Assembly (NCBI RefSeq): GCF_018350175.1
Contig: NC_058368.1
Span: 48,238,001-48,302,000 of the forward strand
DNA from: Felis catus
Lineage: Eukaryota
Direction: 5' to 3'
Length of the DNA stretch: 64,000 bases
Part shown: one piece after another, positions 18,079-62,298 of the stretch
Position numbering within the stretch: position 1 is the stretch's first letter
Layout: each line of letters starts with the position of its first letter
Program-made: the position numbers and the translations under genes
Notes under the pieces: model-generated
The model's database searches: none
The model's input: only the letters and a program-made list of their open reading frames with translations
What the model was told of the DNA's origin: nothing

Positions 18079-18549
18079 GATACTGCTTCTTTAATACAGC
18101 TCAAACATCTCTGAGATGCCCAGGCTGAACGAGGCCACCCATGGCACCCTGGATGTGCCTCTTGGAAAACTTATACCATATACCATGTCATACTTTCTTG
18201 AGTTAGAGAGTGTGTCTTATTCAGCACTTTGTCCCTAACACTTAGTCCAGTGTTTGTCACAGAGAATCATTCAATAAGTACTTGTTGAGAGAAAGAAAAA
18301 TTGTCTTCAACAGCAGTAGTCCCCAAAAATGCAGGAGCTGACCCCAGATAGCTGATTTAAAGAACCACCTCAACTTCTCTGTCAACTGTGGACCCAATTA
18401 CATTAAATATGGAAGGGACCCTCTTACTTTAACTGTGTACACTTTTAAGATCAAATACAAAAATATATACTTTAAGGAAGAGAGAAAGGAAGAGATGAAT
18501 CCTAAATTAGAAGTTTTCAGCTTTGGGTATTTTGACCTACTTCTCCTGC

Positions 18550-20080
18550 ATTGCCATGCCATCTTGGGTCCTTCATGACCATCAGGACCAAAATTTCTGA
18601 AAACCTACCTCTCCGGCTAGGGCCACTCCACCAGGTGTTTTGATAGCCACATGTTCCACTTAGGGCCAGTGGTGCAGCATCAAAACCACACCTCCTACTG
18701 AGATGCCACTGAGAACTGTAAGAGAGAATAGACAATCCTGGGAGAAGTAGGGAATTTAGGGAGAGAATGGAGCATTTTCGGAGAGAAAAGAGAAATGTGG
18801 GAGAACATGGAGGATTGTGGGAGATCACGGAGAACTGTGGGAGAAGGAATTACAGAAAAGAAGATATTGTGGGTGAGATTAAAAAATTTACCTGCTGGTC
18901 TTCTGCCCTCTTTTCCACACCCCTTCACACACATACCCTCACAGTCTGTGAGTCATGTACCTCTCTCCTAAGCCATGCCACCTACTTTCCAGCCCCACAA
19001 CTCCTTCTGCTGGGACTACATACAGTAGTTTTCCATGGCCAGACCTAGCCCTCTGGCACAGCCACTGAGAATTGCAGGAAAGACATGGACTTGGGGGAGA
19101 GCACAGAGAATTTTGTTTGGGGAGAGAATTGTGGAAGACAATAGAGAACTGTGGGTAAGAATAATTATGGAAGAAGCACAGGCTTTGGGAAGAGAAGGAA
19201 TTGTAGATATGGATAAATGGCCTTCTGGGATTTTCTGGTCCCTCCTGTGGGAACCATATCCCCTCCATTATAGCTATACCCCTGCACTAAACTGGGCCAT
19301 GCTCCCTCATGGCCCCTATCCCACTCCTCTCTGAGCTTCGGCACTGCCCAGCCATTTACCCTGGTGCTTCTACATGGCTATGTCCAACCTTCTGAGGTCA
19401 TACCCCTTGGCTCCACAGGCCTACGCTTTTCCTAGTGGGATACACCCCTTTCCCCCATCCATTATGCTTCTCTTTTCCAGACCAATTCTCCATACTCTGC
19501 CTTGGTCCTATCACAGTCTCCCAGGCAAGGTTTTTTCATTCTTTCAGAGGTGCTTCCTACCTCCTACTGTCCTTTTATTGTGGCCAGGCTGGGTCTCTTG
19601 AACTCAGCTGTGTTCACATCCATGCTCCTTGGGCTTCATTCCTCATGCTCCATCATAAACATGCCTTCTCCAACCCATTACATCATAAAGCCATGCCCCT
19701 ACCTACTGGGCTTTGGCAAATGCTCTCTTTTGTAACCATGTCCCCTCCTTCACCCACCATTCTTTTCCCTCTAAGACCACTTTCCTGGTTATCTCCTGTG
19801 TTGTCCATGGTCACTCCCTTTCCACCATAACCATACCCCATTCCTTCCTTTTGGTCTTGTTCCTCTCATCTAGCCATGCTCCTGCTCCCTCATAACTGCC
19901 ACACTCCTTCAGCCCTTCTCTTCACTTCAGCCATGACTCTGCACTCCACCAATGCCACATCCCTGCAATCTACACACATCCAGTCCCTAAAAACTTAGGT
20001 GTGCTCTGTCTCAGCTCAGCCCCTACTACTGTGAAAGGCCATGCCTCCTTTTTTTTTTTTGAAACCCTGGAGGGGCGGGG
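18550..20080. repeat. Degenerate motif array (decayed GCCACGCCCC-like units plus ~20-bp GAGAAYTGTGGGAGA units)
   Basis: Recurrent 10-11-mers and ~20-bp periodicity; alternating purine- and pyrimidine-skewed blocks; no TE I recognise. Confidence 0.7.
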
Positions 20081-20654
20081 CTCCCAAGTCTCCTGAAAAA
20101 TCCACTTAGGCCCAGAGCTTAGCTCAAGTGGCATCTGTACAGTGAACTGAGTCTTGTGGAACCCTGATCCTTGCCTTAAAAAAAAATGACTTTCTTCAGG
20201 TTTCTCTCAGCTCCAAACACCACGACTTGGTAAGTAGAAACCCCATTGTTCATTGGAGAAACAAAACTAGCAGATAGGTTGTGGGCTGTGTTCCCTCCAA
20301 CAAATTTTCAAAGGCACTAAATCTGTGTTCCTTCCAGCAAGGTTTCATGCCTTCTAACCCAACCTGTGGACTGTTTCTTTCCAGGCCTTTATCAGACCTT
20401 AAATGCTAGGCAGATGTGTGTGGTAAGAATACTCTGCTACTTCCTGAGTCTCATCCAGATGGCCTTTCCTAGGCATCTCATGCCCTGTTGCTGTCTAGGG
20501 TCTGTCAGGACAAAACCACACTTAGACTGATCCCCTGGTTGTAGCTCTGAGCCCTAAAATCACTCAGTTATCCTTACGCCTTCCATTTACAACTCTAGTT
20601 CCACAAGAAAACCATGAAAATATTATTACCAACTCTCTTCCCTGAACAATTTTT

Positions 20655-22665
20655 AGGAATACATTTAGCTAGGGAGGTGGGAGACCTTGTTGTTTATCAC
20701 AAGGTAAAAACTGTATAGTTGAACTTGATAGATGAAAACTATGGGGGCGCCTCAGTAGCTCAGTTGGTTAAGCATCCAACTCTTGGTTTCAGCTCACGTC
20801 ATGATCTCACGGTTCATTAGTTCGAGTCTTGCATCAGACTCTGCATGAACAGTACAGAGCCTGCTTGGGATTTCTTTCTCTCTGCCCCTCCCCAGCTTGC
20901 TCTCTATCTCCCTCAAAAAATAAATAAATAAACATTAAAAAAATTACAAAGCACCAATGAAAGAAATTTTAAAAGATACAGATAAATGGAAAGATATCCT
21001 GTCCTCATGGGTCAAAATAATTAATATGTTTAAAATGTTCATACTACCCAAAGTGATCTACAGATTTAGTGCAATCCCTATCAAAATCTCAGTAGTATGT
21101 TTTACAGAAATAGAAAAAGACAGTCCAAAATTCATGTGGAACCACAAAAGACCCTGAATAGCCAAAGCAATTTTGAGCAAGAAAAACAAGGCTGAAAGCA
21201 TGAAACTTCCAGATTTCAAACTATATTACCAAACTACAGTTAGCAATAGCATGGTGCTGACATAGAGACAGACACATAGGTTAACGGAACAGAATAGAGA
21301 GTCCAGGAACTAATTCACTCATGTATGGTCAACTGATCTTTGACAAAGGTGCTGTGAATATACAATACGGAAAGAATAGTTTCTTCTACAATAGGTATTG
21401 GGAAAACTAGATATTCACATACAAAAGAATGAAACTGGACCCTTATCTTACAGCATGCACAAAAACTAATTCAAAATGAGTTAAAGACTCAAATGTAAGA
21501 GTTAACTATAAAACTCCTAGAAGAAAACATAGGGGAAAATCTTGATAATGGCCTTGACAAGATTTGGATATAACACCAGAGGCACAAGCAACAAAAGTAA
21601 AAAATAGACAAATGGAATTACATTAGATTAAAATGCTTCTGCACAGCAAAGGAAACAATTGACAAAGTGCAAAGATAACCTGCAGAATGGGAGAAAGTGT
21701 TTACAAATCATATATCTGATAAAGAATTCATATCCCAAATATATAGGAAACTCCTATTATGCAATAGCAACATAAATAAATAGATAACCCAATTTAAAAA
21801 TGGGCAAAGGACCTGAATAGACACAGGTCCTTTACATCCATTAGGGGTTGATGAGGATGTGGAGAAAAGGGAACCCTTGTATGCTGTTAGTGGTAATGTA
21901 CATCAGGGCAACCACTATAGAAAACAGTATGGAAGCTCCTCAAAAAAGTAAAAATAGAACTACCATTACATTCAGCAATCCCACTTCTGGATGCTTATCC
22001 AAAGGAATTGAAATCTAGATCTTAAAGAGATATTTACATTCCCACGTTCATTACAGCATTATTCACAATAACCAAGATATGGAAGAAACCTAAATGTCCA
22101 TGTATGGAAGAATGGATTTAAAAATATGGTATTTACAGACATGGAATATTATTCGGCCTTTAAAAAGAAGGAAATTCTGCCATTTGTGTCAACATGGATA
22201 AACCTGGAGGACATTATGGTAAAATAAGCAAGACGCAGAAGAACAAGCACTACATGATCCCACTTACATGAGGAATCTAAAATAACCTTACAAAAGCAGA
22301 GAGTAGAATGGTTATTACTAGGTCCAGGGTGGTGTGAGGGGGAGAGGGAAGCAAGGAGGTATTGATCAAAGGGTTCAACATTTCAGTAATGGGAGATGCA
22401 CAAGCCCTAGAGATGTACCCTACAGCACAGTGCCTGCAGTTAGCAATCCTGCACACTTAGTTTTTTCTAAGAAAGCAAATCTTCTGAGAACTGTTCTGTT
22501 ACATACATACACACAGGGGATACACACATACATAAGAGACTTTGAAGGTGATGGATATGTTTATGTTGATGGTGTTTCATGAGTGCATACTTATCTCCAA
22601 ACTCATCAAACTGTATACTTCAAATGTGTACAGCTTTGTGTAGGTGAATTATACCTCAAAAAAGG
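20655..22665 (+). mobile_element. Old L1 (L1MA/L1MB-like) ORF2 C-terminus and 3' UTR
   Basis: Peptide [35 protein letters not shown] plus an L1MA-type 3' end; SINE inserted at 20743. Confidence 0.9.
20743..20943 (+). mobile_element. CanSINE nested in the old L1
   Basis: GGGGGCGCCTCAGTAGCTCAGTTGGTTAAG head; AATAAA tail. Confidence 0.92.
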
Positions 22666-24040
22666 GGTTGTTTTTTTCTTAAGTACTCCACCAAGGATCC
22701 AAAATATTTGTCATTGAGAAGGGTATTTTCTCAAAGTTCTGCAATAAAAATAAATTTGATGTTTGCCCCAAACCTTTCTTCATCTTTTCCCTTTGGTTTC
22801 ACAAAAAACAGAAATGGAACACAAAAATGAGTAGAAGGAGAGAACTGCTACTTAGGATGTGATGAATGGAAATATTACTCTGTTTTATATTGTTCTCCTG
22901 GAATGGTTTGCTTTTTAGAAGAATATTATTAAATAGTTAATGAAACATGCCAAAGGCTAAACATTAATTTAACTCAGTTCAATTACCTAATACCTGTATA
23001 CAATCCAAGCTTTTAATGGCATTACAACTTCACTCCCTGATATTAAAGAGTACCTTTAATTTCAAAACACAATACTCTTATGCCTTCTTTGGGTTTCAGA
23101 AGCCACTCCTCTACTGCATTTTAGTGACTATATTTTTTTCTTTTTTGCTCTTGCATATGAATCTGTAAACAAAAGAGTGTACATAGTGTAATATATGTAT
23201 ATATTTATTTAAATGTTAATAAAAACTGTAAAATAATCAAACAAAAATGTCAGAACAGATGCTCCTGGGGAAAAAGCACTTTCCACTAGCCACCAGTCAC
23301 TCATTCATTCAGAACCATATTTATCAAATGCTGTGTATGTTCCAGTAACAAATAAGAGAAGCCTAAAGGAGCTTGCAGACTGTAGTTGCCTCATCTTGGG
23401 TTTTGATAAGACAAGAAATGACTAGAAAGTTAAAAAAGTTAAAGAAGGTGTTGATAGGTGGAAAAGAATTTGGTAATCACAGATCTCCCTGACTCTATTA
23501 ATAAGGATATTTTTGGGTAGCAAACATAGGAAGCCACTTCTATACTACAGTCCTTTCACCATAAATTCTCATTCTTCACTGAATGTTAAAAAAGAAGCTT
23601 TCAGTTCTGATGAAGAAACACTAGTTGAGAGGTCTGTCACAATGAAAACAAAAAATTAAATCAGAATGAATTCATGATTATCACTATTATGATGTTGTTT
23701 TCAATCATTTGCTTCTTTAAGCAGAGGAAGAGGTGTAGTTATAGCCGTGAGTGGGAATTGAACTGAATACAGTCACGGGAGAGTATCTGTACGGTGAGTT
23801 GCATCCATTGTGTGCATGATGGGAGAAGAGAGGTTGAGAATTCTGGCTTAGATGATCATCTCTATTGTTTCTCTCACCCAGGCATTGGACAGGACCATGA
23901 AGATGACAACTGGAAGTTACACTAAGAAGCATATTTCATACGGCGACTGGATCCATGTGCTCTGGAAACCAGAAGGCCAGTAAAGAGTGAATATTCTATC
24001 TTTAAGTCAAGAAGCTAGACTGACACTACTTTATTTAGCA

Positions 24041-27990: not shown

Positions 27991-28079
27991 GCCTCTAGAA
28001 TATTTTGTCTGTGTGCATGTGTGTACTGACACACGATCCTACTGACTGCAAATGACAACTTGAGTTTTATTTACCACCT

Positions 28080-28432
28080 GCTGAGAGCACTGTCAACAGG
28101 CAGCCTTCAGTTGGTAAGCCCCTTCCTTCCAGAATTGCTTCAGCTGCTGAGCCACCTTGTCCAAGTTCAAACCTCTTCCTAGGTGGCCCACATCCAATGG
28201 TGATGAGATCTGTCCTGTTTGGGACAGCTCAGAAGAGTCATTCTAGCTCCATAGCTTTCTGGGGATTGGCTGTGACTGTTGGGTCTACTTCACAGTTCAA
28301 TGTTTCCCTCACCCAATCCTGCTTCCTTCACCACTATTTCATTGGCATTGATTCCAAGGGCACTTCTTAATAAAGATCTAGCATGTCAAAATCCATCTCA
28401 GAATCTGATTCCCAGAACACCAACTATGATAC
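28080..28432 (+). mobile_element. LTR16-like (ERVL) LTR
   Basis: 3' end ttaataaagatctagcatgtcaaaatccatctcagaatctgattcccagaacaccaactatgataca. Confidence 0.7.
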
Positions 28433-40538: not shown

Positions 40539-42754
40539 TCTTGGATCTATGTGTTCATATGGTCACTTTAATATTGGAAAGGGGTATAGCCCTACTTGAT
40601 AAGAATGATTATAAGAAAAAACCCATCATGTTCCAAAGTCTTTAAGACTTTGGAGGTAGTTAACTTTGGATGTAGTTAAATGTATAAAGAACCAACTAAA
40701 TGCAAATCAAGTCAAGGAGAACTGCATTGGGAGTGTACATGTATGTAGAGGACTATGTACAGACTTCCTGAGAATGTGGAAAAATTAGGTAATAAAAAAA
40801 TTTAGCCTAGGGACGTGGAGTACACAACTATTCAGTTAAACACTCTTGCTAAATTATAGTTTTCTTATTCTACGTTATAAATAGAGGTCCGTGTTAATAA
40901 CCCTATAGGTTTCCCATCCATGCTGAGAATTCGGTATCAGTGTCTCAAATGAGATCTCTAGTCTAGTGCAAATTCAATCATCTGAGAAGATAACCCCCAA
41001 ACTATTAGAAATGTTCTAATTGTTTCCTTTTAACTCCAAGACAATTTATAATTAAATGTGGAAATATATGAGAATCATAATCATGGTGTTAATATTTTTG
41101 TGTAAGAGATTTGTGCTTATTTGGTAGTTTATACACGTGTTATAATGAAGAGAATAACTAATAGAATATGTCCTACTAGAAGCTGAATCTAATTGGAAAT
41201 ATGTGATTTAAGCAATGATTTAAATTTTTTTTTAAATTTTAAGTTGAAATCTTATAAAACTTATATGCAAAATCAGGACATATAGAGAATTTAAGAATCA
41301 TCATATCTAAAATTTAATAGGTTTATGAAAATATTTAGTTCTTGGGATGGCTCGTTGTTAATCCATTAAAGTTCTTAAAAGAGAAAGCATATATATTGAA
41401 TTTACAAAATCAGTTTTTAAGTTTAAAGGAATTTAAATGTTTTGAGCCCCTTACAAACAAATGTTACATTTGCTAGATTTATAAATATAATATTATTTGG
41501 ATGTTGAAGCAAAAGGTTAAGGAAGAACTAAGCTTCGGATTCTTTAAAAATTACATATATATTTTAAAAGTGAAATAACTTCTGCAGAATCTATCCTAAG
41601 GATATAAACTCATTCTCAAGGACCAAAAAAAACCTCAAGGATATAACAAAACCTACGTGGGGGGGAGCCAAGATGGCAGAACAGCATGAAGTTTTTTTGT
41701 GTATGTCTCTCGTCCATGAAATACAGCCAGAACCCATCCTGCCCACCTAGAAAACTGATCTCAGGATTAACACAACAATCTGCATACCCTGAACCACAGA
41801 ATTCAGCAGGTACGCAGCGCGGAGAGCTGAACTTGGGGAGAGAAGCTGTGGAGGGCAGAGAGGTACTTTTGCAGGAGGAGACAGGACGGAGATGGTGGGG
41901 AGAATACGGGAAAAGCACCCCTCCCCAAAAGCAGCTGGAGAGAAAGTGGAAAATTGGAAACAGCCGCAGGGACTAAACTAAAAAGGGAGAAAGGAGAAAG
42001 GAGAGGGTTTCAATTCCATTAAGACTGTAAACAAAGGGAGCGCAAAGGCTGCAACTCCGCAGCTCCATACCTGGCGGTGCTCTGGTGGGAAGGGCGAATC
42101 CCCAGGAACAGAGTGGGGTCCGGGAGGTTCTCGGGCCACACGGGAGAAGCGGTTCCACTGCTGGAAGGACATTTGGTAGAGACCGTTGAAGCCACCTGGT
42201 CCTAGCAGACCCCAGAAGGCGGTCACATTCTCTGGTGCTGGGGCAAGGTCATTAAGGGTGACGCCTGGTGCCAGATGTGTGTTGTGATTTTCCATTACCC
42301 TGAGGCGCTGCAGCTACACTATCTCGCGAACGTTTTCTGGGGCGGGCTGGCACCTGGCCACAATCTCGGGGCACCGGCAGCAGCAGGGTCCAGCAAGCGT
42401 TCCTGGGTGCAGCCGACATTCGGCCATTGCTCATTCGGCCATTGCTAGGTGAGACCCTCCCGCAGAGGGGCGGAACGGGTCAAAGCCGCAGTCCTTCCAA
42501 GTAAGGAGCCGTGGAAAACAGGCACATCTGAGACAAAACTCATGAGAGAGGTACTGCCTGGGGCTTGGTCACGGACACTGAAAAAGCAGGGAGTGGATGA
42601 AAGCTGAAGACAGAAGATGGATGCACAATTGCTGATCAAGAAGAGAATTTGGATACTAGAGACTGGGTAAGCTGGATGACACCAGTTTCACCGCTCCCGC
42701 GCATGCGCATACGCACTTACGAGCGCCACAACCCTCCACCCCAGTAGGCTAGCA

Positions 42755-42768
42755 GCGCCATCTAGTGG
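42755..42768 (-). promoter_or_regulatory. CTCF-consensus site in the L1 5' UTR
   Basis: Minus strand CCACTAGATGGCGC matches the CTCF core CCASYAGRKGGCRS. Confidence 0.6.
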
Positions 42769-42969
42769 AGAACAGAGGCGTTACACTGAGCCCCGCCCAA
42801 CTGGGCCAACTCCCTCTTTAAGAACAGAAGTCTCACTGCCTGCTTAGTTTATGGACTATAAGACGCTTCTTGTCTGACTTCTAGGGAAAACGAAGCAATT
42901 TCTGACGTATTTCAATCTGTTAACAAGTCCATCTATTCAAATTTCTTACTTTTTTCTTTTTCACTTTTC

Positions 42970-43800
42970 TTTTTCTTGAATACAGAGAGAAAATTCATTT
43001 TTATTTTCAATTTTTATCAAAATATTTTTAATTTTTTTACTATTTTTTTCCTTTTGTGTAAATTTTTTCCAATTCTATCTTATTTCCATTTTATTTCAAT
43101 CTACTTCAGTGTATTCACTTTTTCAAATTTTCAAACGATTTCCTTTTTTTCTTTTTTCTCTTTATAGTTTCTTTTCTTTTTCTTGAATACAGAAAGAGAA
43201 AAATTTCATTCTATTTTGAATTTTTATTAAAAATATTTTTCTTTAGGGGCGCCGGGGTGGCTCAGTCGGCTGAACGTCCGACTTCAGCTCAGGTCATGAT
43301 CTCACAGCTTGTGAGTTCCAGCCCCGCATCAGGCTCTCTGCTGACAGCTTGGAGCCTGGAGCCTGCTTCGATTCTGTGCCTCCCTTTCTCTCTGCCCCAA
43401 CCCACTTGCATTCTTCTCTGTCTCTCTCAAAAATAAGTAAACATTAAAAAAAAATCAAGATTTAAAAAAATATATTTTTTCTTTAATTTTTTTACTATAT
43501 TTTTTATTTTTATGTAAATTTTTTCAAATTCTATTTTACTTCCATCATTTTATTTTAGTCTACAGTGTATTCAATTTTTCAAATTTTCAAATGATTTGGT
43601 TTTTTTCTTTTCTTTTTCTTGAATAAAGAGAAAAAAAATCATTTTTATTTTTAATTTTTATTACAAATATTTTTCTTTAATTTTTTTCTACTATATTCTT
43701 TACTTTTGTGTAAATTTTTCAAATTCTATTTACTTCCAGTATTTCATTTCAGTTTACTCCACTGTATTCATTTTTTCAAATTCTCAAATGATTTCCTTAT
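42970..43800 (+). repeat. Three ~200-bp AT-rich tandem units in the L1 5' UTR; the second is interrupted by a SINE
   Basis: Unit tcttgaata..gagaaaa..tcat..aaatatttt..tgtaaattttt..caaattcta..gtgtattca..tcaaattttcaaa(c/t)gattt recurs at ~42975, ~43180 and ~43615. Confidence 0.85.
43246..43465 (+). mobile_element. CanSINE inserted in the L1 5' UTR
   Basis: Full head, CT tract and tail; TSD approximately atatttttcttta on both sides. Confidence 0.95.
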
Positions 43801-43975
43801 TTTCCCCCTTTTTTCTCTAACGATCAAACCACTTTCAACACCCGGACCAAAACACACACCTAGGATCTAGCATCATTTATTCAATTTTGTTTGTGTGTGT
43901 GTTTTTAATTTTTTAATTTTAATATTTTTTTAATTTTAATTTTTCTACCTCATTAACTTCTTTTCTCCCTTCAAA

Positions 43976-44838
43976 ATGATGAAATGAAGGAATTCACCCG
44001 AAAAGAAAGAGCACGAAGAAACGACAGCCAGGGATTTAACCAACACAGATACAAGCAAGATGTCTGAACCAGAATTTAGAATCACGATAATAAGAATACT
44101 AGCTGGAGTTGAAAATAGACTAGAATTCCTTTCTATGGAGATAAAAGAAGTAAAAACTAGTCAGGATGAAATAAAAAAAATGCTATAACTGAGCTGGAAT
44201 CACGGATGGATGCAGCAGCGGCAAGGATGTATGAGGCAGAACAGAGAATCAGCGATATAGAGGACAAACTTATGGAGAATAACGAAGCAGAAGAAAAGAG
44301 GGAGATTAAGGCCAAAGAGCTCAATTTAAGAACTAGAGAAATCAGTGACTCATGAAAAAGGAACAACATCAGAATCATAGGGGTCCCAGAAGAGGAAGAG
44401 AGAGAAATAGGGGTAGAAGGGTTATGTGAGCAAATCATAGCAGAAAACTTCCCTAACCTGGGCAAAGACACAGACATCAAAATCCAGGAAGCACAGAGCA
44501 CCCCCATTAGATTCAACAAAAACCGACCATCAACAAGGCATATCATAGTCAAATTCACAAAATACTCAGGCAAGGAGAGAATATGAAAGCAGTAAGGGAA
44601 AAAAGTCCCTAACCTACAAGGGAAGACAGATCAGACCTATCCACAGAAACTTGGCAGGCCAGAAAGTAGTGGCGGGATATATTCAGTGTGTGAATCAGAA
44701 AAATACGCAGCCAAGAATTCTTTATCCAGGAAGGCTGTCATTTAAAATAGAAGGAGAGATAAAAAGTTTCCCAGACAAACAAAAATTAAAGGAGTTAATA
44801 AACCAGCCCTGCAAGAAATTTTAAGGGGGACTCTGTGA
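43976..44838 (+). pseudogene. L1 ORF1p remnant (disrupted)
   Basis: Translates as M-M-K-*-RNSPEKKEHEETTARDLTNTDTSKMSEPEFRITIIRILAG..., and later NNIRIIGVPEEEE, KIQEAQSTP and RHIIVKF, all typical of L1 ORF1. There is a TGA at codon 4 plus later stops and frameshifts. Confidence 0.9.
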
Positions 44839-44949
44839 GGGGAGAAAAGATGAAAATATTAAATACATACATACATACATACCAAAAGCAACAAAGATTA
44901 AAAAGGACCAGAGAACACCACCAGAAACTCCAACTCTACAAGCAACATA

Positions 44950-47900
44950 ACGGCAATAAATTCATATCTTTCAGTACTCACTCTAAACGTCAATGAACTC
45001 AATGCTCCAATCAAAAGACATAGGGTAACAACAGAATGGATAAGAAAACAAGATCCGTCTACATGTTGTTTACAAGAGACCCACTTTAGACCTACTGACA
45101 TGTTCAGATTGAAAATTAGGGGATGGAGAACCATCTGTCATGCTAATAGTCAACAAAGAAGCCGGAGTAGCTTATATCAGAAAATCTAGACTTTAAAATA
45201 AAAGACTGTATCAAGAGATGCAGAAGGGCATTATATCATAATCAAGGGGTCTATCCACCAAGAAGACCTAACAATTGTAAACATTTATGTGCCAAATGTG
45301 AGAGCACCCAAATATATAAATCAGTTAATCACCAACATAAAGAAACTCATCAATACTAATACCATAATAGTAGGAGACTTCCACACCCCACTCACAGCAA
45401 TGGACAGATCATCTAATCAAAAAATCAACAAGGAAAAATGTCTTTGACACACTGGACCACATGGACTTAACAGATATATTCAGATCATTTCATCTGAAAG
45501 CAGCAGAATATACATTCTTTTCCAGTACACATGGAACATTCTTGAGAATAGACCATATACTGGGACACAAATCAGCCCTAAGTAAGTACAAAAAGATCGA
45601 GATCATACCGTGCATATTTTCAGACCACAACGCTATGAAACTCGAAATCCACCACAAGAAAAAATTTGGAAAGGTAACAAATACTTGGAGACTGAAGAAC
45701 ATCCTACTAAGGAATGAATGGGCTAACCAAGCAGTTAAAGAGGAAATTAAAAAGTATATGGAAGCCAATGAAAATGATAACACCACAACCTAAAACCTCT
45801 GGGACGCAGCAAAGGTGGTCATAAGAGGAAAGTATATAGCACTCCAGGCCTTCCTAAAGAAGGAAGAAAGATCTCAGATACACAGCCTAACCCTACACCT
45901 TAAAGAGCTGGAAAAGGAACAGCAAATAAAACCCAAAAACAGCAGAAGACAGGAAATAATAAAGATTAGAGCAGAAATTAATGCTATCGAAACCAAAAAT
46001 AAACAAAAAACCAAAAACCAGTAGAACAGATTGATGAAACCAGAAGCTTGTTCTTTGAAAGAATGAACAAAATTGATAAACCACTAGCTAGTGTGATCAA
46101 AAAGAAAAAGGAAAGGACCCAAATAAATAAAATCAAGAATGAAAGAGGAGGATCACAACCAACACAGCAGAAATACAAACAATAATAAGAGAATATTATG
46201 AGCAATTATATCCCAATAAAATGGGCAGTCTGGAAGAAATGGACAAATTCCTAGAAACATATACACTACCAAAACTGAAATAGGAAGAGGTAGAAAATTT
46301 GAACAGATCCATAACCAGTAAGGAAATCGAATTAGTAATCAAAAATCTCCCAAAAAACAAAAGTCTAGGGCCAAATGGCTTTCCAGGGGAATTCTACCAA
46401 ACATTTAAGGAAGAGTTAACACCTGTTCTCTTAAAGCTGTTCCAAAAAATAGAAATGGAAGGAAAACTCCCAAACTCTTTCTATGAAGCCAGCATTACCT
46501 TGATTCCAAAACCAGACAGAGACCACACTAAAAAGGAGAACTATAGACCAATTTCCGTGATGAACATGGATGCAAAAATCCTCAACAAGCTATTAGCCAA
46601 CTGGATCCAACAATACATTAAAAAAATTATTCACCACGACCAAGTGGGATTTGTACCTGGGATGCAGGGCTGCTTCAATATCTGCAAAACAATTAACGTG
46701 ATTCATCACATCGATAAAAGAAAGGACAAAAACCATATGATCATCTCAATAAATGCAGACATAGCATTTGACAAAATACAGCATCCTTTCTTGATAAAAA
46801 CCCTCAAGAAAGTAGGGACAGAAGGATCATTACCTCGAGATCATAAAAGCCATATATGAACAACCCAACGCTAATATCATCCTCAATGGGGAAAAACTGA
46901 GAGCTTTCCCCCTAAGGTCAGGAACAAGACAGGGATACCACTCTCGCCACTGTTATTCAACATAGTATTGCACATCTTAGCCTCTGCAATCAGACAACAC
47001 AAAGAAATAAAAGGCATCTAAATCGGCCAGGAGGAGGTCAAACTTTCACTCTTTGCAGATGACATGACACTCTATATGGAAGACCCTAAAGATTCCACCA
47101 AAAAACTGCTAGAACTGATTCATGAATTCTGCAAAGTTGCAGGATATAAAATCAACGGACAGAAATCAGTTGCATTCCTATACACCAATAACGAAGCAAC
47201 AGAAAGAGAAATCAAGGAATCGATCCCATTTACAATTGCACCAAAAACCATAAAATACCTAGGAATAAATCTAACCAAAGAGGTGAAAAACCTATACACT
47301 GAAAACTATAGACAGCTTATGAAAGAAATTGAAGAAGTCACAAAAAAATGGAAAAAAGATTCCATGCTCCAGGATAGGAAGAACAAATATTGTTAAAATG
47401 TCCTTACTATCCAAAGCAATCTATATATTCAATGCAATCCCTATCAAAATAACACGAGCATTCTTCACAGAGCTAGAACAAACATAATTTGTATGGAACC
47501 AGAAAAGACCCCAAATAGCCAAAGCCATCTTGAAAAAGAAAACCAAAGCAGGAGGCATCACAATCCCGGACTTCAAGCTATACTACAAAGCTGTAATCAT
47601 CAAGACAGTATGGTAGTGGCACAAGAACAGACACTCACATCAATGGAACAGAATAGAGAACCCAGATATGGACCCACAAACGTATAGACAACTAATCCTT
47701 GACAAAGCAGGAAAGAATATCCAATGGAATAAAGACAGTCTCTTCAGCAAGTGATGCTGAGAAGTCTGGACAGCGACATGCAGAAGAATGAACCTGGACC
47801 ACTTTCTTACACCATACACAAAAATATACTCAAAATAGATGAAAGACCTAAATGTAACACAGGATGCCATCAAAATCCTTGAGGAGAAAGCAGGCAAAAA

Positions 47901-48810
47901 CCTTCTTGATCTTGGCCGCAGCAACTTCTTACTCCACATGTCTCCAGAGGCAAGGGAAACAAAAGCAAAAATGAACTACTGGGACCTCATCAAAATAAAA
48001 AGCCTCTGCACAGCGAAGGAAACAATCAGCAAAACTAGAAGGCAACCAACAGAATGGGAGAAGATATTTGCAAATGGCATATCAGATAAAGGATTAGTAT
48101 CCAAAATCTATAAAGAACTGCTCAAACTCAACACCCAAAAAACAAATAATCCAGTGAAGAAATGGGCAAGAGACATGAATAGACACTTCTCCAAAGAAGA
48201 CATCCAGATGGCCAACCAACACATGAAAAAATGCCCAAGTTCACTCATCATCAGGGAAACACAAGTCAAAACCACAATGAGATACCACCTTACACCTGTC
48301 AGAATGGCTAACATTCACAACTCAGGCAACGACAGATCTTGGCGAGGATGCAGATAAAGAGGATCTCTTTTGCATTGTTGGTGGGAATGCAAGCTGGTAC
48401 AGCCACTCTGGAAAACAGTATGGAGATTCAGGAAAGTTGCAGGATATAAAACCAAAAATATAAAACTAAAAATATAAAAACTAAAAATAGAACTACCCTA
48501 TGACCCAGCAATTGCACTACTAGGCATTTATCCAAGGGATACAGGTGTGCTGTTTTGAAGGGACACATGCTCCCCCATGTTTATAGCAGCACTACCAACA
48601 ATAGCCAAAGTATGGAAAGAGCCCAAAAGTCCATCAATGGATGAATGGATAAAGAAGATGTGGGATATATACACAATGGAGTATTACTTGGCAATCAAAA
48701 AGAATGAAATCTTGCCATTTGCAACTACGTGGATGGAACTGGAGGGTATTATGCTAAGTGAAATTAGTCAGTCAGAGAAAGACAAATATCATATGACTTC
48801 ACTCATATGA
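44950..48810 (+). pseudogene. L1 ORF2p remnant (APE endonuclease, reverse transcriptase, C-terminal domain), fragmented
   Basis: Endonuclease motifs LTLNVN-LNAPIKRHRV, CCLQETH and FSDHNAMKLEI. RT motifs [27 protein letters not shown] and LFADDM (~47049-47066). ORF-track pieces at 45461, 46299, 47064, 47839 and 48577. The presumed start codon reads ACG; several stops and frameshifts. Confidence 0.95.
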
Positions 48811-49109
48811 GGACTTTAAGATACAGAACAGATGAACATAAGGGAAGGGAAGCAAAAATAATATAAAAACAGGGAGGGGGACAAAACATAAGAGACTCTT
48901 AAATATGGAGAACAAACTGAGGGTTACTGGAGGGGTTGTGGGCAGAGGGGCGGGCTAAATGGGTAAGGGGTACTAAGGAATCTACTCCTGAAATCACTGT
49001 TGCACCATAGGCTAATTTGGATGTAAATTAAAAAAAATTTTTTTTAAATCCACATAGAAGAATAAAATAATCTTATAATGGTGAAAAAACTTCACATTAC
49101 CAATTATGG

Positions 49110-49680
49110 GAGAAACCTGCACCCCATATCCCTCCTGTGCAATGCACTGAGTTTATGTTATCTGTGTAGTGTCCCCGGTAAACAATGTTTAATCTAAATC
49201 TAATCATAAGTAAACAAACACATCTAAATTGAAGGACACATTCAAAACAACTGGCCTAGATGCTTTGAAACTGTCAAAATCATGAAAGACCACCATCAAA
49301 ACAAACAAAAAACTAAACAGACATAAACACCAACAAAGAAAAACACAATGAATAGGGAAAAAAGGTGTGGGATAGTGGGGAAGGCTAACGATTGTGTGAA
49401 CCTTCACTGGATCTGGATCCCCAAACTAAAAATCTGTAAAGGGCACGATTGAGACATTTTTACAACCTCCATGGGAAAATATCCTTGTTCTTAAGGAATA
49501 GGTGGTAAAATGTTCAGAGGAGAAGTCTAAAAGATGTCCACAATTTGCACTTAAACAGTTAAAAAATGTGTATACACAGGGTCCTGGGAATCTGGCTGAG
49601 GGGTATACAGATGTTCAGTGTCCTATTTTTGAGTTTTTCTGTAGGTTTGTAAATTGTCAAAAAAAAACCCAGTTGAATAA
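49110..49680 (+). mobile_element. Ancient L1 (L1MC/MD/ME-like) 3' fragment
   Basis: aatctaatcataagtaaacaaacacatctaaattgaaggacacattc...aactggcc...tcatgaaagac resembles old L1 3' UTRs. Confidence 0.65.
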
Positions 49681-50347
49681 AAATGTCAACTCACATTGAA
49701 CCTGCTTTACTACCTTATGGTGCTCATGATTCTCAGGATAAGTAGACCCCCACCTGCAGCACAAGGGAGGTGCTGGGAAGGGAAGGGAAGGTGCAGCACA
49801 AGGGAACTTGCCTTGTCTAAGAGTTTTCTTGCCAAGAATTGGCTCAGGAATGTGCTTGTTTCTGAATTTGGACCAATGAAACAAGAAGAGTGGTTTGCCA
49901 CAGGTTTCCTTCCTTTCTCTGCTTCCAGGAGCAAGTTTCTGTTTCCTTCTATTACACCTGTACATGTGTATGAGGCCTGGGACTTTTGCAACCATCTCAC
50001 TGCCAGTCTGATGTAGAAGCTACCGAAAGGAACAGGGATGACAAAAGTCTCAGGGATAAATCAATGTTGGCAAGATTATGGTTCCTTTGGTCTTCCAATT
50101 TGGGGAATCAATTGATTTAAGCCAGTTGAAATATTGCAGCAAAACATATTATCTGATACGAGCCACATCACTCATAATGTGACTGTACTATCTCCATTCC
50201 AAACTGCAACTGACAGCAGAGTTTTCATGAGGAAGGAACTACCTTTATTTAGCAAAATATTTTGATTGATTGGTCCTGCAGGGAGAAAGGTGAGACTGTG
50301 AGGTCAGGGAGATGAAACCTAGCCTGAGCAGTCAAATAGAAGGAGGC

Positions 50348-50381
50348 ATTAGTCAGGGTTCTCCTGAGAAACAAAACCAAC

Positions 50382-50421
<40 letters not shown>

Positions 50422-50823
50422 TATATCTCTATCTCTACCCTCTATATCTCTATCTGTAGACAGAGAGATTTATTTAAGGATTTGACTCACACGATTGTAG
50501 AGGTGTGGTAAGTTTAACATAGGGTGGGCTGGCAGGCTACAGACTTAGTGACTCAGGGAAAGGTTGCAGTTCAAATCCAAAGGTATCTACTGGCAGAATT
50601 CCTTCTTTCTTAGGGGCAGTCACTCTTTGTTTTATTAAGGCCTTCAATCAATTGAAAGAGGACCATCTACATTAAGGAGGGTAATTTGCTTTACTCAAAG
50701 TCCACTATTTAAATGTTACATTTATCCAAAAAACTACCTTCACAGAAACATCCTGAATAATGTTTGACTAAATATCTGAGCACCATGGCCCAGCCAATTT
50801 GACGTATAAAATTAATCACTACA
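50348..50823 (-). mobile_element. MLT2 (ERVL) LTR with internal (TG)n
   Basis: attagtcagggttctcc..agaaacaaaaccaacagg(TG)n...ggagggtaatttgctttactcaaagtccac...ataaaattaatcactaca. Confidence 0.88.
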
Positions 50824-51024
50824 ATGGATAAACTGCTCAGCATGAGAAATGAACACGCTGGGATTTGCCTTGGGAGAGATGTTGGGCAGGAGAAAAGGAG
50901 AAAAGGAGAGAGATAGACTAGCCAACCAGAGGCTTTTCCAACTTTAACTTTTTACATTGTGCCTCCTTACATGCATGCCCATGTGTACAAAACTGAAAAA
51001 AAGCTACTCTTCATCTTCTCTGCT

Positions 51025-51191
51025 GTCTCTTCTCTTCTCTTCTCTTCTCTTCTCTTCTCTTCTCTTCTCTTCTCTTCTCTTCTCTTCTCTTCTCTTCTCT
51101 TCTTCTCTCTCTCTTCTCTTCTTTCTCTTCTCTTCCATTCCATCCCATCCCATCCCATCCCATCCCATCCCATTCTATTCCATTCCATCCT
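51025..51191. repeat. Compound pentanucleotide repeat (CTCTT)n then (CCATC/CCATT)n
   Basis: Read directly from the sequence. Confidence 0.97.
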
Positions 51192-51290
51192 ATACCTCAT
51201 TTTTGAAAATGTTCATCTTGACCCACTAAATGAATTTAATTGGCACAAAGCTTCAGTTTGCAAACAATAAACATACAATTTACACATACT

Positions 51291-51321
<31 letters not shown>

Positions 51322-52477
51322 ATGTGCATTTGTGTAGTAAATCAAGGAAGAGGCTAACAGGTCAGAAAATACGTCAGACCTTAAAATGATCCCTAAACTA
51401 AGAGAGTTGATAGTGATTATATAAGCAGCCCTGCCTCCTTTTCCCCCAGTGCTGCTTACATCCCCAAAGTTCACAGAAATCTTGGGGAGGGCTTTGGTGT
51501 GGAATTAGGAATCTGAGCATCTATCTGTATGCAAGGTGAACAGAGCTATGCCTTAAAAAAAACCCTAAATACATTCTGGGGATCTCTTCCAGGGGACATG
51601 GAGGCCCAGCTCATTACCTGTGTTACAGAGGCTATTCTCTCTACCTGTAGGCCTCCATGACACCTTAGCCAGTTCCAGTGGTGCTAAGCCATTTATGTTT
51701 TCTACCACAGAAACTGTATTTACCTACCCTAGTAGGACTTTTGGTTAGAGATTATATCTTAGGTACAATTTTTATGTCCTGTATCAATTAGCAATACCTA
51801 CACAGACTAGTAACTCAATTATGTGTTTTTCCTTATTTTATGCATATAAAAATTATTACTAGTAAACATAATAACACTGACTTGCCATGCATGAGTGGCT
51901 GAATAAAAAACTTGGTATTTCCTAAACACTTGCCCATATTTTAGACATATCAAATATAACTTACAGGTGTACTTAAGACACATAATAACATTAGACAAAT
52001 TACAAAAGAATCAACATCAATGCCTAAGAGACTATGCGCATTCCTGCTAAACGTATTACAAATCATTGGCTCCAAATCAGCAATGAAAGGTGAAGCAGGG
52101 TCCGTAGACCCTACCGAGTTCAGCAACAGAATTTACTGGCCACACTAATGCCAGCTTAAAGGGCCCTGAGGATGATCAATAATGTTAATCCTCATGACCG
52201 CATCTACCTCACAACTTGGTCTCTGATCAAGCTTTAAGAGTTCAGAGGAGTCTGGAGCTGCAGCAAGGCTACTCTTTAGACGCTGGAACTGACCTGAGTC
52301 TTTGGTACAGTCTGACAGCTCTTATGCACTGGATATCACAGTAGCTCATGACACAAACTTGCAGTGCCTTGCAAACCTCTCCAGCGTAACGGATTACAAT
52401 ATATTCACGTAAAGTGTAGCTAAGTCTAATGTTGCTGATGTCATCATTGCCTCATAAAGCTGAGTTTCTCTCTCTCC

Positions 52478-52510
<33 letters not shown>

Positions 52511-54887
52511 ATTTCGATTGTGTAAAAGTTGTTCCTGTGTAAGGAAAATATAATTTATTTCAGAGATAGATAATCACTCAAGTGTATGAGCTATGTGGGC
52601 GTTCATTGGTGAATTCAGACTAAACAGGAAGTGATGTAAATTATACTTATTACACTGCTGGGAGAGAAATATATTAAATCCAGACAGCACTCAAACAAAG
52701 TACAAGGAACTCATTGTGTTGAAGGAAACCAGGCAACTTTGGTGGGAAGACAATGTACTATATGGTATGAAAACCATCAATGGCCATCTGGGACTAAAAT
52801 AATTGTTTAGGGAGCATGATTTTGTTCTAGCACTGAAATATGTTTTCTTCTTTGATAAAGCCCCAGGGTATTCTGATCCTAAGCACATTGCCATTTTTGT
52901 ACTTTTAACCATTTCGTGCTGTTGTTATATTGGACAGAGTAAGAAACAGCTACACCAACGGTATTTAGATTAGAAATCTTAGCTGTGATGAAACACCCAG
53001 AGTAAAGGAGAGGATTGAGAAAGTTACAGGATTATCTAGCCCCCATATAATTCCCCCTATTGTTGAAGTATCCAGGAATCACTCAGCAAAAGAAATATTA
53101 ACAAATAAATTACCTTGAGAGTAAAACAATAGCATGTGATCTATTCCTTGAGGTTTGTTCCATTGGTCTATCTTTACGATAAAGCCTCCTGGGATGAACT
53201 GAAAAACAAACAAAAAACATCGCTAAAGGGCTGGTTTGGCTGTTTGCGTGGCCTAGCGAGCACTCTCAGAAAATCAGGCCAGAGACATATAAAATTAATT
53301 TCCAACTTACATTTTGTTACAAAGTCATATCCAAAATGAAGTAATTGAATGAATTAAGTTCAGCCTTACAATTTGCTACCATGCTTCACCCAGAGTAGAA
53401 CAAGACGGACTTCCTTAATTTATTGGCCTCTGCCTTAACCGAGTATTTCTAAGATGGCATAACGAAAATCTTCACAGATAATTTAGTAAAAATGTACTTA
53501 TGGTTTATTGCCTCAGTTTTCAAAAAAAATACCTTGCTATCTTTTAGTGAGTGATTTCCTTCATAAATTGGGGGTTGTGATCACCACACCAATACCAACA
53601 AAGCTCTGACTGGGAGAGAAAATCACTCCCCCCTGGGAGGGACCCCCTTCATAGTGCTCGAAACAGCCAGGTTTGGGAAAGTCAGAGCCACAGTGCACTG
53701 AGGCTCCCAGCTGAAGAGGAAGAAGCGTGTTTGGATGGGGATGGCTGGAATGTGCACCCCCGTGGCTCTCTCCACAGTGTCTTTGAGTGGAACAGAGTGA
53801 TTCTGCAGAACACCACGTTCATTTGGAAGTGGATTTCTGTCTGTAATAAAGCAAGCCTCAAACGATTTTAGTCTCTCATTTTTATGAGTGATTCAACTAC
53901 CCTATGATTTGCTGAGTATGAGACGAAGGGCAGTATTGTTGGGTTTATATCGGCGCGAACATACATAATCAAAGTATTTGTTGAATGTTTTTGATATTCA
54001 CTGCTCTTAACTCTCTCTCCCACCTTAGCCCCTGATCCCCACCTTCCATCCTTTCTCCAGTCTCTTAGCCCACAACCCCCTAGTGGCTAAGGACACCAGT
54101 TCTGGAACCAGACTGACTGGGAAAATTGCCTAAACTCAGCGCCACTCTTTTTTATCTATAAAAATTAGGATAATAACAGGACCTAACTCAGAATTTTTGT
54201 AATGAATTAAAAGGAACAGATATAATGCTTAGAATACTGCCTGGCATCTATGAAGTACTCAATTATTATTTGAATTACCACCTATCATCTATCACCATTC
54301 TATATAATTATCAGTAGCATTCACTACCATTCTCGTCATAGAGTGGATTTACCTAGTAGATCTTCAACTGAAGGACATTACGCTGGAGGATAAATAGATT
54401 TTTCAAGTGCTTAATTTAGCAATTATTCAAAAGACATTCTCCTCATTACTGGTCTTATTTTCAAAAACCTCATAATCCAGTTTTCTTAAAAACGTACAGA
54501 AATAAACTTGCTGGCACGTGCCAGGTGGATCCTTCTATACTTAAGTGATACACAAAACCTGAAAAAAAGAATTCAATTATAGAGTCCATTCTAGGCTTGG
54601 AAAGATGCATTTTTTTCCATATCATTTCATATTCCTGGACCACTTTTTAATTTTATATTCGGTAAAATATTGTTAGGAAACCTTCTTTGGGTGCCGGTTG
54701 TTATGAGATAAAAACCCTGTTCATTTTTTAGTATCAAGTATATCTCGTTCTGTGTTTCAAATCACTGTACACAAGTGGTAAAACTTTTCATAACAAAGGT
54801 TTAATTAGAATGGTTAATAACCATGATTTCCAAAGTGTCTGAGTCACCCTTAGTAATAATTAGGGAGTTTTGTTCCATACAAAATGC

Positions 54888-54893
54888 TTTATT
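54888..54893 (-). terminator. Polyadenylation signal AATAAA; a variant ATTAAA lies ~90 nt downstream at ~54800-54805
   Basis: Plus-strand TTTATT; the minus strand reads ggttaAATAAAgcattttgtatgg, at the end of an AU/TGTA-rich tract. Confidence 0.6.
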
Positions 54894-57629
54894 TAACCTT
54901 CATGCCTTCATTCAGATAATTATACAAATGCATACAGTTAAAGGTTTAAACTCTATTTCGGTTCACAGCTCAATTCATAGGAAAGTTGAATACAGAAAAG
55001 CAATGCACCAACAGAATATGTCTGAGACACCATTAAAAACGATAACACTTGTTCATTTAAATCTCTGAGAATAGACTGGAATAATCATCCTCTGAGAGAG
55101 GCTCATTAGGAGGGTCTCCCTTTACATTATCATAGGGCAAAAAAAAAAAATCACCATTTTACAGTAAAAGGAAAAAAGCTCTGAGTATATTTACAATACA
55201 TACACTATACATAAATACAAGAACAACACTTACATAATATTAATAAACTTATAACAGGGGTTGCCTAAACACTACAGAGTATATAAATGCAGAGGAAACT
55301 ATTGGGAAATTAGATCTTTAGATAAGCTGGAGAAATAAATTCATTTGCAATTAAAACTGAACAGAAAACCAAATGAAGATTTAAGAAATTAACACATTTG
55401 CTTGCCAGCATCATTGGGGGGTTTTATCCTTTAATGCGTAGGACCTCCTGTGGGCATTGTAACTCTCTGGGGTCAGGGACCCGAGAGTCTTTTGTAAAAT
55501 TACATCTGTAAAGTGAGTCAGACGCAGCACATCTATTCAATTTGCTGTTCAGAGGCTTCAAGCCTAGAATAACTGTTTTGTAAACCAAAGGATGTTTTTG
55601 TGTTTTTACACAGATGGATCTTGTGATCCAGTCATCATGTATAATGAGCTAAGTGTCAAGGAAAAGGAAAAAGATGCCTGCTTGATTTGGCCAAAGATGA
55701 TATTTTTCTTTATTCCCATATATTTTTCAAATACGAGTGAGAGATTTATTTAAAAGAATATGACGTTTGAACTGACCCCCACACACCAAGAGCAATGTCT
55801 AGACTACTACTAATTATAACTAAGTCATTTTAAGTGGCAGGTGGGTATCTTAAAGGTGGTCTGTTCTCATCGTTTTACAACACAGAAAGTTCTGAGTACA
55901 TTCTTCAATGGACAAACATGAATTTGCTGGTTTCTCTTTTTTAAAATGAGCATGTTATGATACACATAATTGCATTATGATGCAGGATGACATAATACGT
56001 AAGACGATGTTTTCAAGCTGGTTTTGTAAGTAGTTATCTCACATCCACAGAGAGTTGGTTTGCCATGGGATGCAACGTGTCCCACATAGACATGGACAAA
56101 ACAATACAACTACCATTCTGCGAGGGGTCGGGGGCGGGGGGATGGTGATTTTTTTAAATGAATTTTTAAACACAACAAATTGTGGACAGACAAGTTGATA
56201 GGAAAGAGCCTTGAATATAGGCACCAGTGCCCCAGTTCAACAATACCCATCCAACATGATGAAGCCTGAGGAACAAAATATATATTGCAGTCTGGGTGTA
56301 ATTAAAAAACTCTGCCATAGGAAAACTAGAAACACAAGTAGGGAGAAAGCATTTTCTATAAGGTTTTACACTGTATCTTTGGAGCACGAAATTAGCAAGG
56401 GGAAGATGTTGGTGTGTCCCTAAAATGTCTTACTTTTTGATTACCTGAGCACTTTTACTAGAATGTGACCCAAATTCTACCCTCCTATGCACCCTCATTT
56501 TTCACCAAAAATGAATCTCTGTGAACGTCTTGGTAGGCCTGCTTTGGTAAAAGCAAGATATAATTCACAGAGTCTGGTTCTTGCTTTGCACAAAGGGCAG
56601 ACTCTATTGTCCCAAACATCTAAAATTTCTAGAGATGAAACCCAGAAAGAAAGAAAAAAAAAAAAAAAGTACTGATGTGACTATTACCACTATTCATCTC
56701 TTTTCAACTCACTTAAAGTTGTGGTTTTGTTGTTGAGAAATTGTTGCTTGTGAAACCCAATTAACGGAGAAGAGAGCCCCTTCCCGCAGTGGCTTGTGCA
56801 CACAGAACACTTGCTTTCAGCACGGAAGGGAATTTGTTTATACAGGTTTTATCTCTTCCCTCAGCCAAGTAACAGGGAGAAAGATCATAATTCAGGGGAT
56901 TCATTTTCAGAAAAAAGAAACACCATGAGAAATGACATTCTCTTAATGTTTTCTAAGCCCATTAGTGCTTCCATGGATCAATACTGTCAAAGACCTTGTT
57001 CTACACAGAAAAGGGGTGGCGGTTGATTTCTCTGATGTTGGACAGCTTCTCACATAAAATTCAATTAAACTAACAATACCATAAACAAATTATTCATAAG
57101 ATTATTTAAAACATTCCAAGGTGGTACTTTCAGGTGAGAAATCTGAAAAGGAACTATTCGTTCTCTCTCCTTGCTTGTCATCTGAATGTTTGTGATTGCC
57201 GCCCCGTTAACAACTGCCAAGAGTGGGCTGATATTCACGAGTTCTATGGAGGTGTACATTTCAAAAGCAATTTAAGCAGATTCTAGAAGGTCTACAGGCG
57301 GAAAGGCTTTTACTATACCTACAAATAAATACATAGACTTGAGAAAACCCACTCTGGCTAAAATGCTACCAAGTGGGGGAGAGTTTTCAGGATTTGGGAT
57401 CTCTAGGCCAAACATTTCAGAGGAAAGTGACAAATTCAGGGAGACAGCTGATCATTGCTGTTTGTTTATAATGATCCTTAATGCAGGACTTCCCAGGAGA
57501 AGCCTGATTTCAGGTATTGGGTACCACTGTCATATCATGTGCTATATCTTACTTGGAAAATAGGACTACCCAGCCATAAAACTACTTCAGAGTTAGAAAC
57601 ATGAAAACTTGGCTGTAGGGAAGCCACCT

Positions 57630-57860
57630 GCAGTGTGGTGCAGTTGGAAGAACACGGCCTTCAGACTAGAGATAGGTAGCTTCACATTCCCACTCTGCTG
57701 TTCGCTATTTCCGTGTTTGCAAATGACTCAGCCACTTTCTGTGCCCCATTTGCCCAACTATAAAATGTAGACCTGTTTACGGAATAGAGGCAACGTGTCC
57801 AAAAATTGCCTAGTAGGATGCTTGGTGGATAGTAAGGGTTTAGTAAAGGACAGCTATTGT
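57630..57860 (+). mobile_element. MIR inside the putative 3' UTR
   Basis: gtgtggtgcagttggaagaacacggc...ctttctgtgccccatttgcccaactataaaatg...gcctagtaggatgcttgg. Confidence 0.75.
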
Positions 57861-58915: not shown

Positions 58916-58949
<34 letters not shown>

Positions 58950-61900: not shown

Positions 61901-62175
61901 TTGTAACACTCTCAAGACATCTCTCCGCAGAGAAAAGATTGCCCCTCTTATGAGAGTAGGCAGAGTGAAATCAAGTCTACACTGCGCCTGGACGATTCAC
62001 CTACTAACAGCCAACCAGGTTCTAGGACCGGCAGTGAGGACATCACAGGCCATGCTGGCCACTCTCTGTGTTCTTTGCCACTGACCAGTAACCAACGCCG
62101 CTGTGTAGCAAGAAACCTTTTTCTATCCAAAATGGTCACAAGCAATGAGAAGTAGGAATTGTATACAGTACAGAT

Positions 62176-62298
62176 AAAAAAAAAAACAAAAAACAAAAAA
62201 AACTTTCCAGTTGGTAAAAAAAAAAAAAAAAAAAGAAAAAAAAGAACGAAAGAGGAGAAAAAAAAAAAAAAAACCAAAAAAACAACCACCAAAAAACC
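62176..62298. repeat. A-rich low-complexity tract (U-rich on the minus-strand mRNA)
   Basis: Read directly from the sequence. Confidence 0.9.

What the first reader, a model, noticed from the sequence alone, without database searches (positions are those of the whole stretch)
18550..20080. Fossil KLF/SP-box array: ~25 copies of GCCACGCCCC, none with the CpG intact
Seen: variants of one motif recur over 1.5 kb, e.g. gccatgccatc (~18553), accacacctcc (~18685), tccacacccct (~18913), gccatgccacc (~18972), gctatacccct (~19273), gccatgctccc (~19296), gtcatacccct (~19397), tccatgctcct (~19619), gccatgcccct (~19690), accatacccat (~19830), gccatgctcct (~19872), gccacactcct (~19897), gccacatcccc (~19954) and gccatgcctcc (~20038). 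The centre is almost always CATG, CACA or CATA, and I saw no intact CACGCC. One intact GC box (GGGGCGGGG) sits at ~20072-20080. Known: TG, CA and TA are the deamination products of methylated CpG, and GCCACGCCC is a KLF/SP consensus. Inference: this was an ancestral homotypic KLF/SP cluster (CpG-island-like promoter or enhancer, or a VNTR-derived one) that became germline-methylated and decayed. CCACACCC variants could still bind KLFs. I recognise no TE that explains it.
Basis: partly seen in the sequence, partly recalled or inferred. Interest (0 to 1): 0.7.

Follow-up and report, generated by a model that had tools for sequence, protein, structure and literature searches.

The report
Decayed GC-box cluster, likely old LTR
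A 1.7-kb stretch of mammalian DNA carries about 18 worn-out copies of a GC-rich protein-binding motif whose CG centres have mutated away; it is most likely an ordinary, ancient and inactive mobile-element relic.

Summary
The motif cluster is real: 18 copies (not ~25) within 2 mismatches of GCCA-nn-CCCC at 18553-20047, all on the + strand, versus 2.6 in shuffles. CpG decay is shown. Centres are TG/CA/TA in 11 of 12 flank-defined hits versus 9 of 43 elsewhere. Homologous DNA, read through gene-caller ORFs in unnamed Logan/ENA contigs, keeps CG at site 18972 and has TG where this genome has CA at 18914.

Nothing favours retained KLF binding: 9 of 18 centres are TG, the change that PMC13397507 uses to break the KLF1 motif; one copy keeps CCACACCC.

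Best reading (0.6): relic of an ancient, methylated, neutrally decaying LTR-type element, perhaps LTR78-like (recalled, untested). No repeat library was available. LTR hallmarks (PBS, poly(A) signal, TSD) were absent or at chance, and no paralogue at 80% identity or more was found. A host-born orphan CpG island remains possible (0.3). Both are known kinds; interest is low.

The parts
18380..20130 (+). Whole element, approximate (ends uncertain by about 100 bp): GC 48% versus 40% for the window, 6 CpG, CpG o/e 0.06
   Evidence: TG...CA/TSD enumeration did not fix the ends
18520..18704 (+). C-rich motif block 1: motif copies at 18553 and 18685, looser ones at 18622 and about 18645
   Evidence: homologue P0004 has Arg codons implying CG at 18629-30 and 18650-51
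18705..18867 (+). Purine-rich tandem array A of about 8 degenerate 20-bp units
   Evidence: TRF 18759-18845, period 20/40; repeat family D1; 6 units compared: mean pairwise identity 66%; homologous ORFs P0001-P0026 map here
18880..19060 (+). C-rich motif block 2: copies at 18914 (CA centre; the only exact CCACACCC) and 18972 (TG centre)
   Evidence: P0002 implies TG at the 18914 site and P0004 implies CG at the 18972 site
19061..19218 (+). Purine-rich tandem array B, homologous to array A, 356 bp downstream
   Evidence: local alignment score 33 versus maximum 16 in 200 shuffles; P0003 spans both arrays
19230..20047 (+). C-rich motif block 3 with 14 of the 18 motif copies; irregular spacing of 20-180 bp
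20049..20060 (+). T12 run
   Evidence: read directly
20072..20080 (+). Intact GC box GGGGCGGGG, opposite orientation to the decayed copies
20129..20146 (+). Weak resemblance to PBS(Lys3): 12 of 18 identical, 2 more explained by CpG decay; not significant
   Evidence: rank 9 of 127,966 positions; 2 matches versus 1.35 expected
20229..20234 (+). GGTAAG splice-donor-like word; no evidence that it is used
   Evidence: no joints

Best explanation
The 1.7-kb block is the relic of an ancient LTR-type retroelement, probably inserted before the split of several mammalian orders. Its U3-like region carried homotypic GCCACGCCCC (GC/GT-box, SP/KLF-type) sites and two arrays of a 20-bp unit, built by internal duplication, to drive its own transcription. 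After insertion it was methylated in the germ line, and the methyl-CpGs deaminated on either strand (CG to TG or CA; TA after a second change). It is now drifting neutrally with essentially no working KLF/SP sites. Shown: the cluster, the arrays, the CpG origin, homologues elsewhere, and no bias toward binding-retaining changes. Inferred: germ-line methylation, retroelement origin, SP/KLF binding in the past. Recalled only: a possible LTR78/LTR78B identity (about 0.35-0.4).
For: A delimited GC-rich, CpG-free block lies in TE-dense DNA with no coding signal. Its decay profile equals that of an old LTR16-like element at about 28030-28430 (name recalled): CpG o/e 0.05-0.06 and TG+CA o/e 1.45-1.49. 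Young SINEs (0.73-0.82) and the young L1 5' end (0.52) differ. All 18 motifs lie on one strand, interleaved with two homologous 20-bp arrays. PMC2664473 (passages) states that LTRs reach over 1 kb, hold enhancer and promoter elements in U3, and that ERV9 and HERV-H rely on GC/GT boxes bound by Sp1. PMC11366022 (passages) lists KLF among the commonest cCRE-associated motifs in TEs, finds LTR motifs ancestral more often than chance, and says most degrade with age. Two outlying ORF groups (P0014/15/25/26 and P0016; weakest hits, E 9e-4 to 7e-3) could be paralogues. PMC7951965 (passages) mentions a polypyrimidine-rich portion of an antisense LTR78, which would fit purine-rich sense arrays; this is a weak lead.
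Against: No Dfam or RepeatMasker match could be run. There is no AATAAA on the + strand in 18250-20700, and the two ATTAAA (18402, 18878) lie far from the 3' end. The PBS-like site is not significant. TSD pairs: 3 of 704 at 4 bp (2.8 expected) and none at 5-6 bp. Whole-genome contigs of run X3 gave one full copy and only four 36-42 nt pieces under 90% identity. No second copy occurs in the window. Most homologous ORFs form graded, collinear groups that look like orthologues of one locus. The blocks before arrays A and B do not align (67 of 300 shuffles score as well), so there is no simple 356-bp duplication.
Confidence: 0.6

Rival explanations
1. A host-born orphan CpG island or distal promoter/enhancer, built by local tandem amplification of a KLF/SP site and a 20-bp unit, which lost its protection from methylation and decayed, further in this lineage than in some others.
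For: No paralogue at 80% identity or more. The homologous ORFs look like one orthologous series. P0004 still has CG at up to 6 places where this genome has TG/CA. A GC box followed by a donor-like word lies at the 3' end. PMC11170920 (passages) describes the turnover and decay of orphan CpG islands across mammals.
Against: Strictly one-strand motifs and 20-bp arrays are more typical of LTR U3 regions than of host islands (own knowledge). No gene start was seen nearby: no non-L1 coding evidence, though only partly tested. There is no RNA-seq support, though the test was weak. Paralogue searches had little power for copies under 70% identical.
Confidence: 0.3
2. A fragment of another old transposable element (an ancient L1 5' UTR with monomer repeats, an unclassified eutherian repeat, or a hAT-type element with subterminal motif repeats).
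For: Old L1 5' ends and hAT subtermini carry CpG-rich repeated motifs (recalled). An L1 lies 500 bp downstream (identity by recall).
Against: That L1 appears to start inside ORF2 and there is no ORF1-like sequence (by eye; Pfam 0 of 9 ORFs). There are no terminal inverted repeats spanning the block, and the motifs are not mirrored at the two ends.
Confidence: 0.1

Closest known systems
Ancient eutherian solo LTRs without a known internal part (LTR78/LTR78B, listed under ERV1 in Repbase per PMC5753468; 4,819 and 3,281 human copies per PMC4419796)
   Same: Great age, presence across mammals, full CpG decay. A length above 1 kb and purine-rich internal repeats are recalled, not checked.
   Different: No sequence comparison was possible; PBS, poly(A) signal and TSD were not detected; multi-copy status was not shown.
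GC/GT-box (Sp1/KLF)-driven LTR promoters such as ERV9 and HERV-H (PMC2664473)
   Same: GC/GT-box motifs and no clear TATA box.
   Different: Those have one or a few proximal boxes and are still active; here 18 copies over 1.5 kb are all decayed.
Orphan CpG-island turnover in mammals (PMC11170920)
   Same: A formerly CpG-rich, intergenic block lost by deamination, with lineage differences in CpG retention.
   Different: The paper treats islands still present in at least one species and tied to chromatin marks; no chromatin data or full orthologue was available here.
CpG deamination reshaping TF binding sites (PMC3228489)
   Same: The same mutational process acting on a motif.
   Different: That work stresses the creation of sites; here sites are mostly destroyed, a case the authors only speculate about.

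Membership tests
Retroviral-type LTR (features per PMC2664473) | TG...CA ends with target-site duplication | tested here: inconclusive
   3 of 704 end pairs with a 4-bp TSD (2.8 expected), none at 5-6 bp; a TSD this old may be eroded
Retroviral-type LTR (features per PMC2664473) | Poly(A) signal (AATAAA/ATTAAA/AGTAAA) followed by a T/GT-rich stretch near the 3' end | tested here: inconclusive
   No exact signal near the 3' end; only TAAAAA at 19988, followed by GT/CT-rich sequence; decay could explain the loss
Retroviral-type LTR (features per PMC2664473) | TATA box (may be absent) | tested here: inconclusive
   No TATAA; CATAAA at 19654 and 19684
Retroviral-type LTR (features per PMC2664473) | Primer-binding site after a 5' LTR | tested here: inconclusive
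   Lys3-like word at 20129 ranks 9th in the window and is at chance level; only one tRNA type was tested
Retroviral-type LTR (features per PMC2664473) | Dispersed multi-copy family | tested here: inconclusive
   None at 80% identity or more in X3 contigs; two outlying ORF groups may be paralogues; low power for older copies
LTR78/LTR78B | Alignment to the family model | not testable with these tools
   No Dfam or Repbase here; the LTR78 papers read in passages gave no family sequence
Active homotypic KLF/SP cluster | Several intact CCACGCCC/CCACACCC cores | tested here: not met
   0 intact CCACGCCC and 1 CCACACCC among 18 copies, plus one GC box; 9 of 18 carry the TG centre that PMC13397507 uses to break the motif (over 400-fold loss in vitro)
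CpG island (present day) | High CpG observed/expected and GC of 50-55% or more | tested here: not met
   CpG o/e 0.06 and GC 0.48
Decayed CpG-rich element | TG/CA excess and CG retained in homologues | tested here: met
   TG+CA o/e 1.45-1.49; CG at 18972 in P0004 and a TG/CA switch at 18914 in P0002

The most novel reading that the evidence does not exclude
A non-TE, host-born enhancer or promoter of early placental mammals, made of about 18-25 same-strand KLF/SP sites and two 20-bp arrays, that remains partly CpG-intact and active in some lineages but was switched off by methylation and fossilised in this one: a site-by-site readable case of regulatory loss.
Probability: 0.2. Interest if true: 0.5.

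Novelty: new member of a known kind. Interest (0 to 1): 0.22.

Why it matters
If it is an LTR relic it is one of thousands and matters only as a clear illustration: 18 copies of one motif act as replicate clocks of CpG decay, showing symmetric, unselected loss of KLF/SP sites. If it proves not to be a TE, it would be a tractable case of orphan CpG-island loss in which each binding site's fate can be traced across mammals.

Tried and rejected
No genome is held for this window. Self-BLAST of the window found only array A versus B. A degenerate two-unit array pattern found 0 matches in genome contigs and viral contigs; a looser version found 7 metagenome loci, none aligning to the element. Profile A1 found no relatives in viral or GTDB contigs, and a plasmid blastn found none.

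Coding origin rejected: the 20-bp unit is not a codon multiple, 0 of 9 ORFs hit Pfam, and the homologous 'proteins' switch frames against the window. Protein searches with the minus-strand ORF and with the block-3 ORF found nothing, so the 14 block-3 motifs could not be read in homologues. Rfam: 0 at gathering threshold; one sub-threshold mir-6130 hit lies inside the L1. A 3' hairpin at 20020-20150 is not unusual (z=+0.66). The PBS and TSD ideas fell to chance level.

RNA: X21 gave 0 reads (no test) and X24 one partial read under 90% identity, with about 1-2% of each run read and tissue unknown. X17 contigs cover 23 of 30 bins without joints and may be DNA. Earlier scan findings: seven look-ups returned nothing and one met no finding. 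Paper searches (listings only) showed no title or abstract start describing this motif array in a named repeat; that is not proof that it is unpublished.

Full report
Setting. The window is mammalian, TE-dense DNA. Its SINEs look like carnivore SINEs (recalled), and two runs that hold part of the stretch are labelled 'feline metagenome'. No assembly is held. By eye, the element lies between an L2-like 3' end (about 18085-18290) and a truncated L1 (about 20650-22690); both names are recalled. I read 1-44500 and 49000-64000; 44500-49000 was not displayed.

The observation. There are 18 copies within 2 mismatches of the motif flanks and 11 within 1, against 2.6 and 0.35 in 500 dinucleotide shuffles; all are on the + strand. 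An unbiased word search recovers the same motif. The centres are TG 9, CA 5, TA 4 and CG 0. Defined by flanks alone, 11 of 12 centres are TG/CA/TA versus 9 of 43 elsewhere (p=1.4e-5). The count of ~25 is generous, but the feature is real.

Two purine-rich arrays of a 20-bp unit lie at 18705-18867 and 19061-19218. They are homologous to each other (score 33 versus maximum 16 in 200 shuffles), and six units of array A are 66% alike pairwise. The order is motif block (2 copies), array A, motif block (2 copies), array B, long motif block (14 copies), T12, and an inverted GC box. The blocks preceding the two arrays do not align with each other. The C-rich blocks have TG+CA o/e of 1.45-1.49. The element's CpG o/e is 0.06, like an old LTR16-like element in the window (0.05) and unlike two young SINEs (0.73, 0.82) or the young L1 5' end (0.52).

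Homologues. DNA collections gave nothing, so I searched protein collections with the non-coding translation across array A. This retrieved gene-caller ORFs from unnamed Logan/ENA contigs: 4 hits at E 1.4e-7 or better, then 15 of 2106 candidates with a profile, of which 4 were inputs, and cluster members up to P0026. None carries a name or organism.

P0001, P0002 and P0004 are collinear with the window. In one P0004 block, 42 of 61 codons are identical and all 19 differences are single-base. This suggests orthologues in related mammals (inference). A second group (P0003, P0006-13, P0017-24) shares extra array units, and P0003 spans both arrays. P0014/15/25/26 and P0016 are outliers at the detection limit and may be distant orthologues or paralogues.

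Three of the 18 motif sites could be read in homologues. At 18972, P0004 has Arg where the window has Cys, and the only single-base route gives an intact CG. At 18914, P0002 has Met where the window has Thr (TG versus CA; aligned by eye, as tblastn placed a gap nearby), while P0004 appears to share CA. At 18685 both have CA. P0004 implies CG at five further places, two of them ambiguous. These readings assume that neighbouring silent bases match the window. The 14 sites of block 3 were unreadable.

Function today. PMC13397507 (passages) uses CCACGCCC as the KLF1 consensus and CCATGCCC as the broken control, with over 400-fold loss in vitro. Half of the copies here have that TG centre, TG and CA are statistically symmetric (p=0.42), and one copy keeps CCACACCC. 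So there is no sign of selection to keep KLF binding. RNA evidence was absent but barely tested.

Origin. The one-strand motif clusters, internal short arrays, roughly 1.7-kb length and old-TE-like decay make an ancient LTR the likeliest source (0.6). This fits what PMC2664473 and PMC11366022 say (passages) about GC/GT boxes in LTRs and ancestral TE motifs that degrade with age. Against it, every LTR hallmark tested was absent or at chance: PBS rank 9 of 127,966, no AATAAA, TSD at expectation, and no copy at 80% identity or more in a whole-genome contig set. For an element this old these tests have little power, so I do not file it as a member of any LTR family. The LTR78 idea is recall, helped only by one remark in PMC7951965. 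A host-born orphan CpG island (PMC11170920, passages) keeps 0.3 and other TE classes 0.1.

Papers. Seen as passages from find calls only: PMC7951965 (plus one search of its one listed supplement; the supplement store gave no answer, so other files may exist), PMC5753468, PMC4419796, PMC3185775 (source of the PBS motif), PMC1779541, PMC13175892 (LTR78 enriched for ERG and RUNX1 binding; the arrays here are rich in TGTGG(G/T), 5.0 versus 1.2 per kb, a lead only), PMC6360812, PMC3714349, PMC11366022, PMC3228489, PMC13397507, PMC11170920 and PMC2664473. All other papers were seen as search listings only.

Verdict. The feature is real and the CpG decay is shown. It is most likely an ordinary, inactive relic of a known kind. 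Interest 0.22.

Noticed in passing
window 41660-49000: Apparently full-length young L1 on the + strand with a CpG-rich 5' end (o/e 0.52); the reading frames are broken (longest + strand frames 191 and 172 aa). A SINE sits in its 5' part near 43190-43460.
   Followed up: partly
window 52000-64000: Long TE-poor stretch with raised CpG o/e (0.27-0.37 per 2 kb) that looks like a long 3' UTR or other conserved sequence; gene not identified.
   Followed up: partly
window 28030-28430: Old LTR16-like solo LTR (name recalled); used as a control for CpG decay.
   Followed up: partly
window 20660-20740: About 60 bp of non-L1-looking sequence interrupts the 5' end of the truncated L1, just before a SINE insertion (by eye).
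   Followed up: no
window 20284-20360: Two-copy 37-bp direct repeat just downstream of the element (84% over 25 nt).
   Followed up: no
P0001-P0026 (unnamed Logan/ENA ORFs): Public protein collections hold spurious ORFs called on what is probably mammalian non-coding DNA; these can serve as a proxy for orthologue comparison when no genome is at hand.
   Followed up: yes
L002-L007: GC-rich metagenome contigs carry short tandem repeats matching the array pattern; they do not align to the element.
   Followed up: partly
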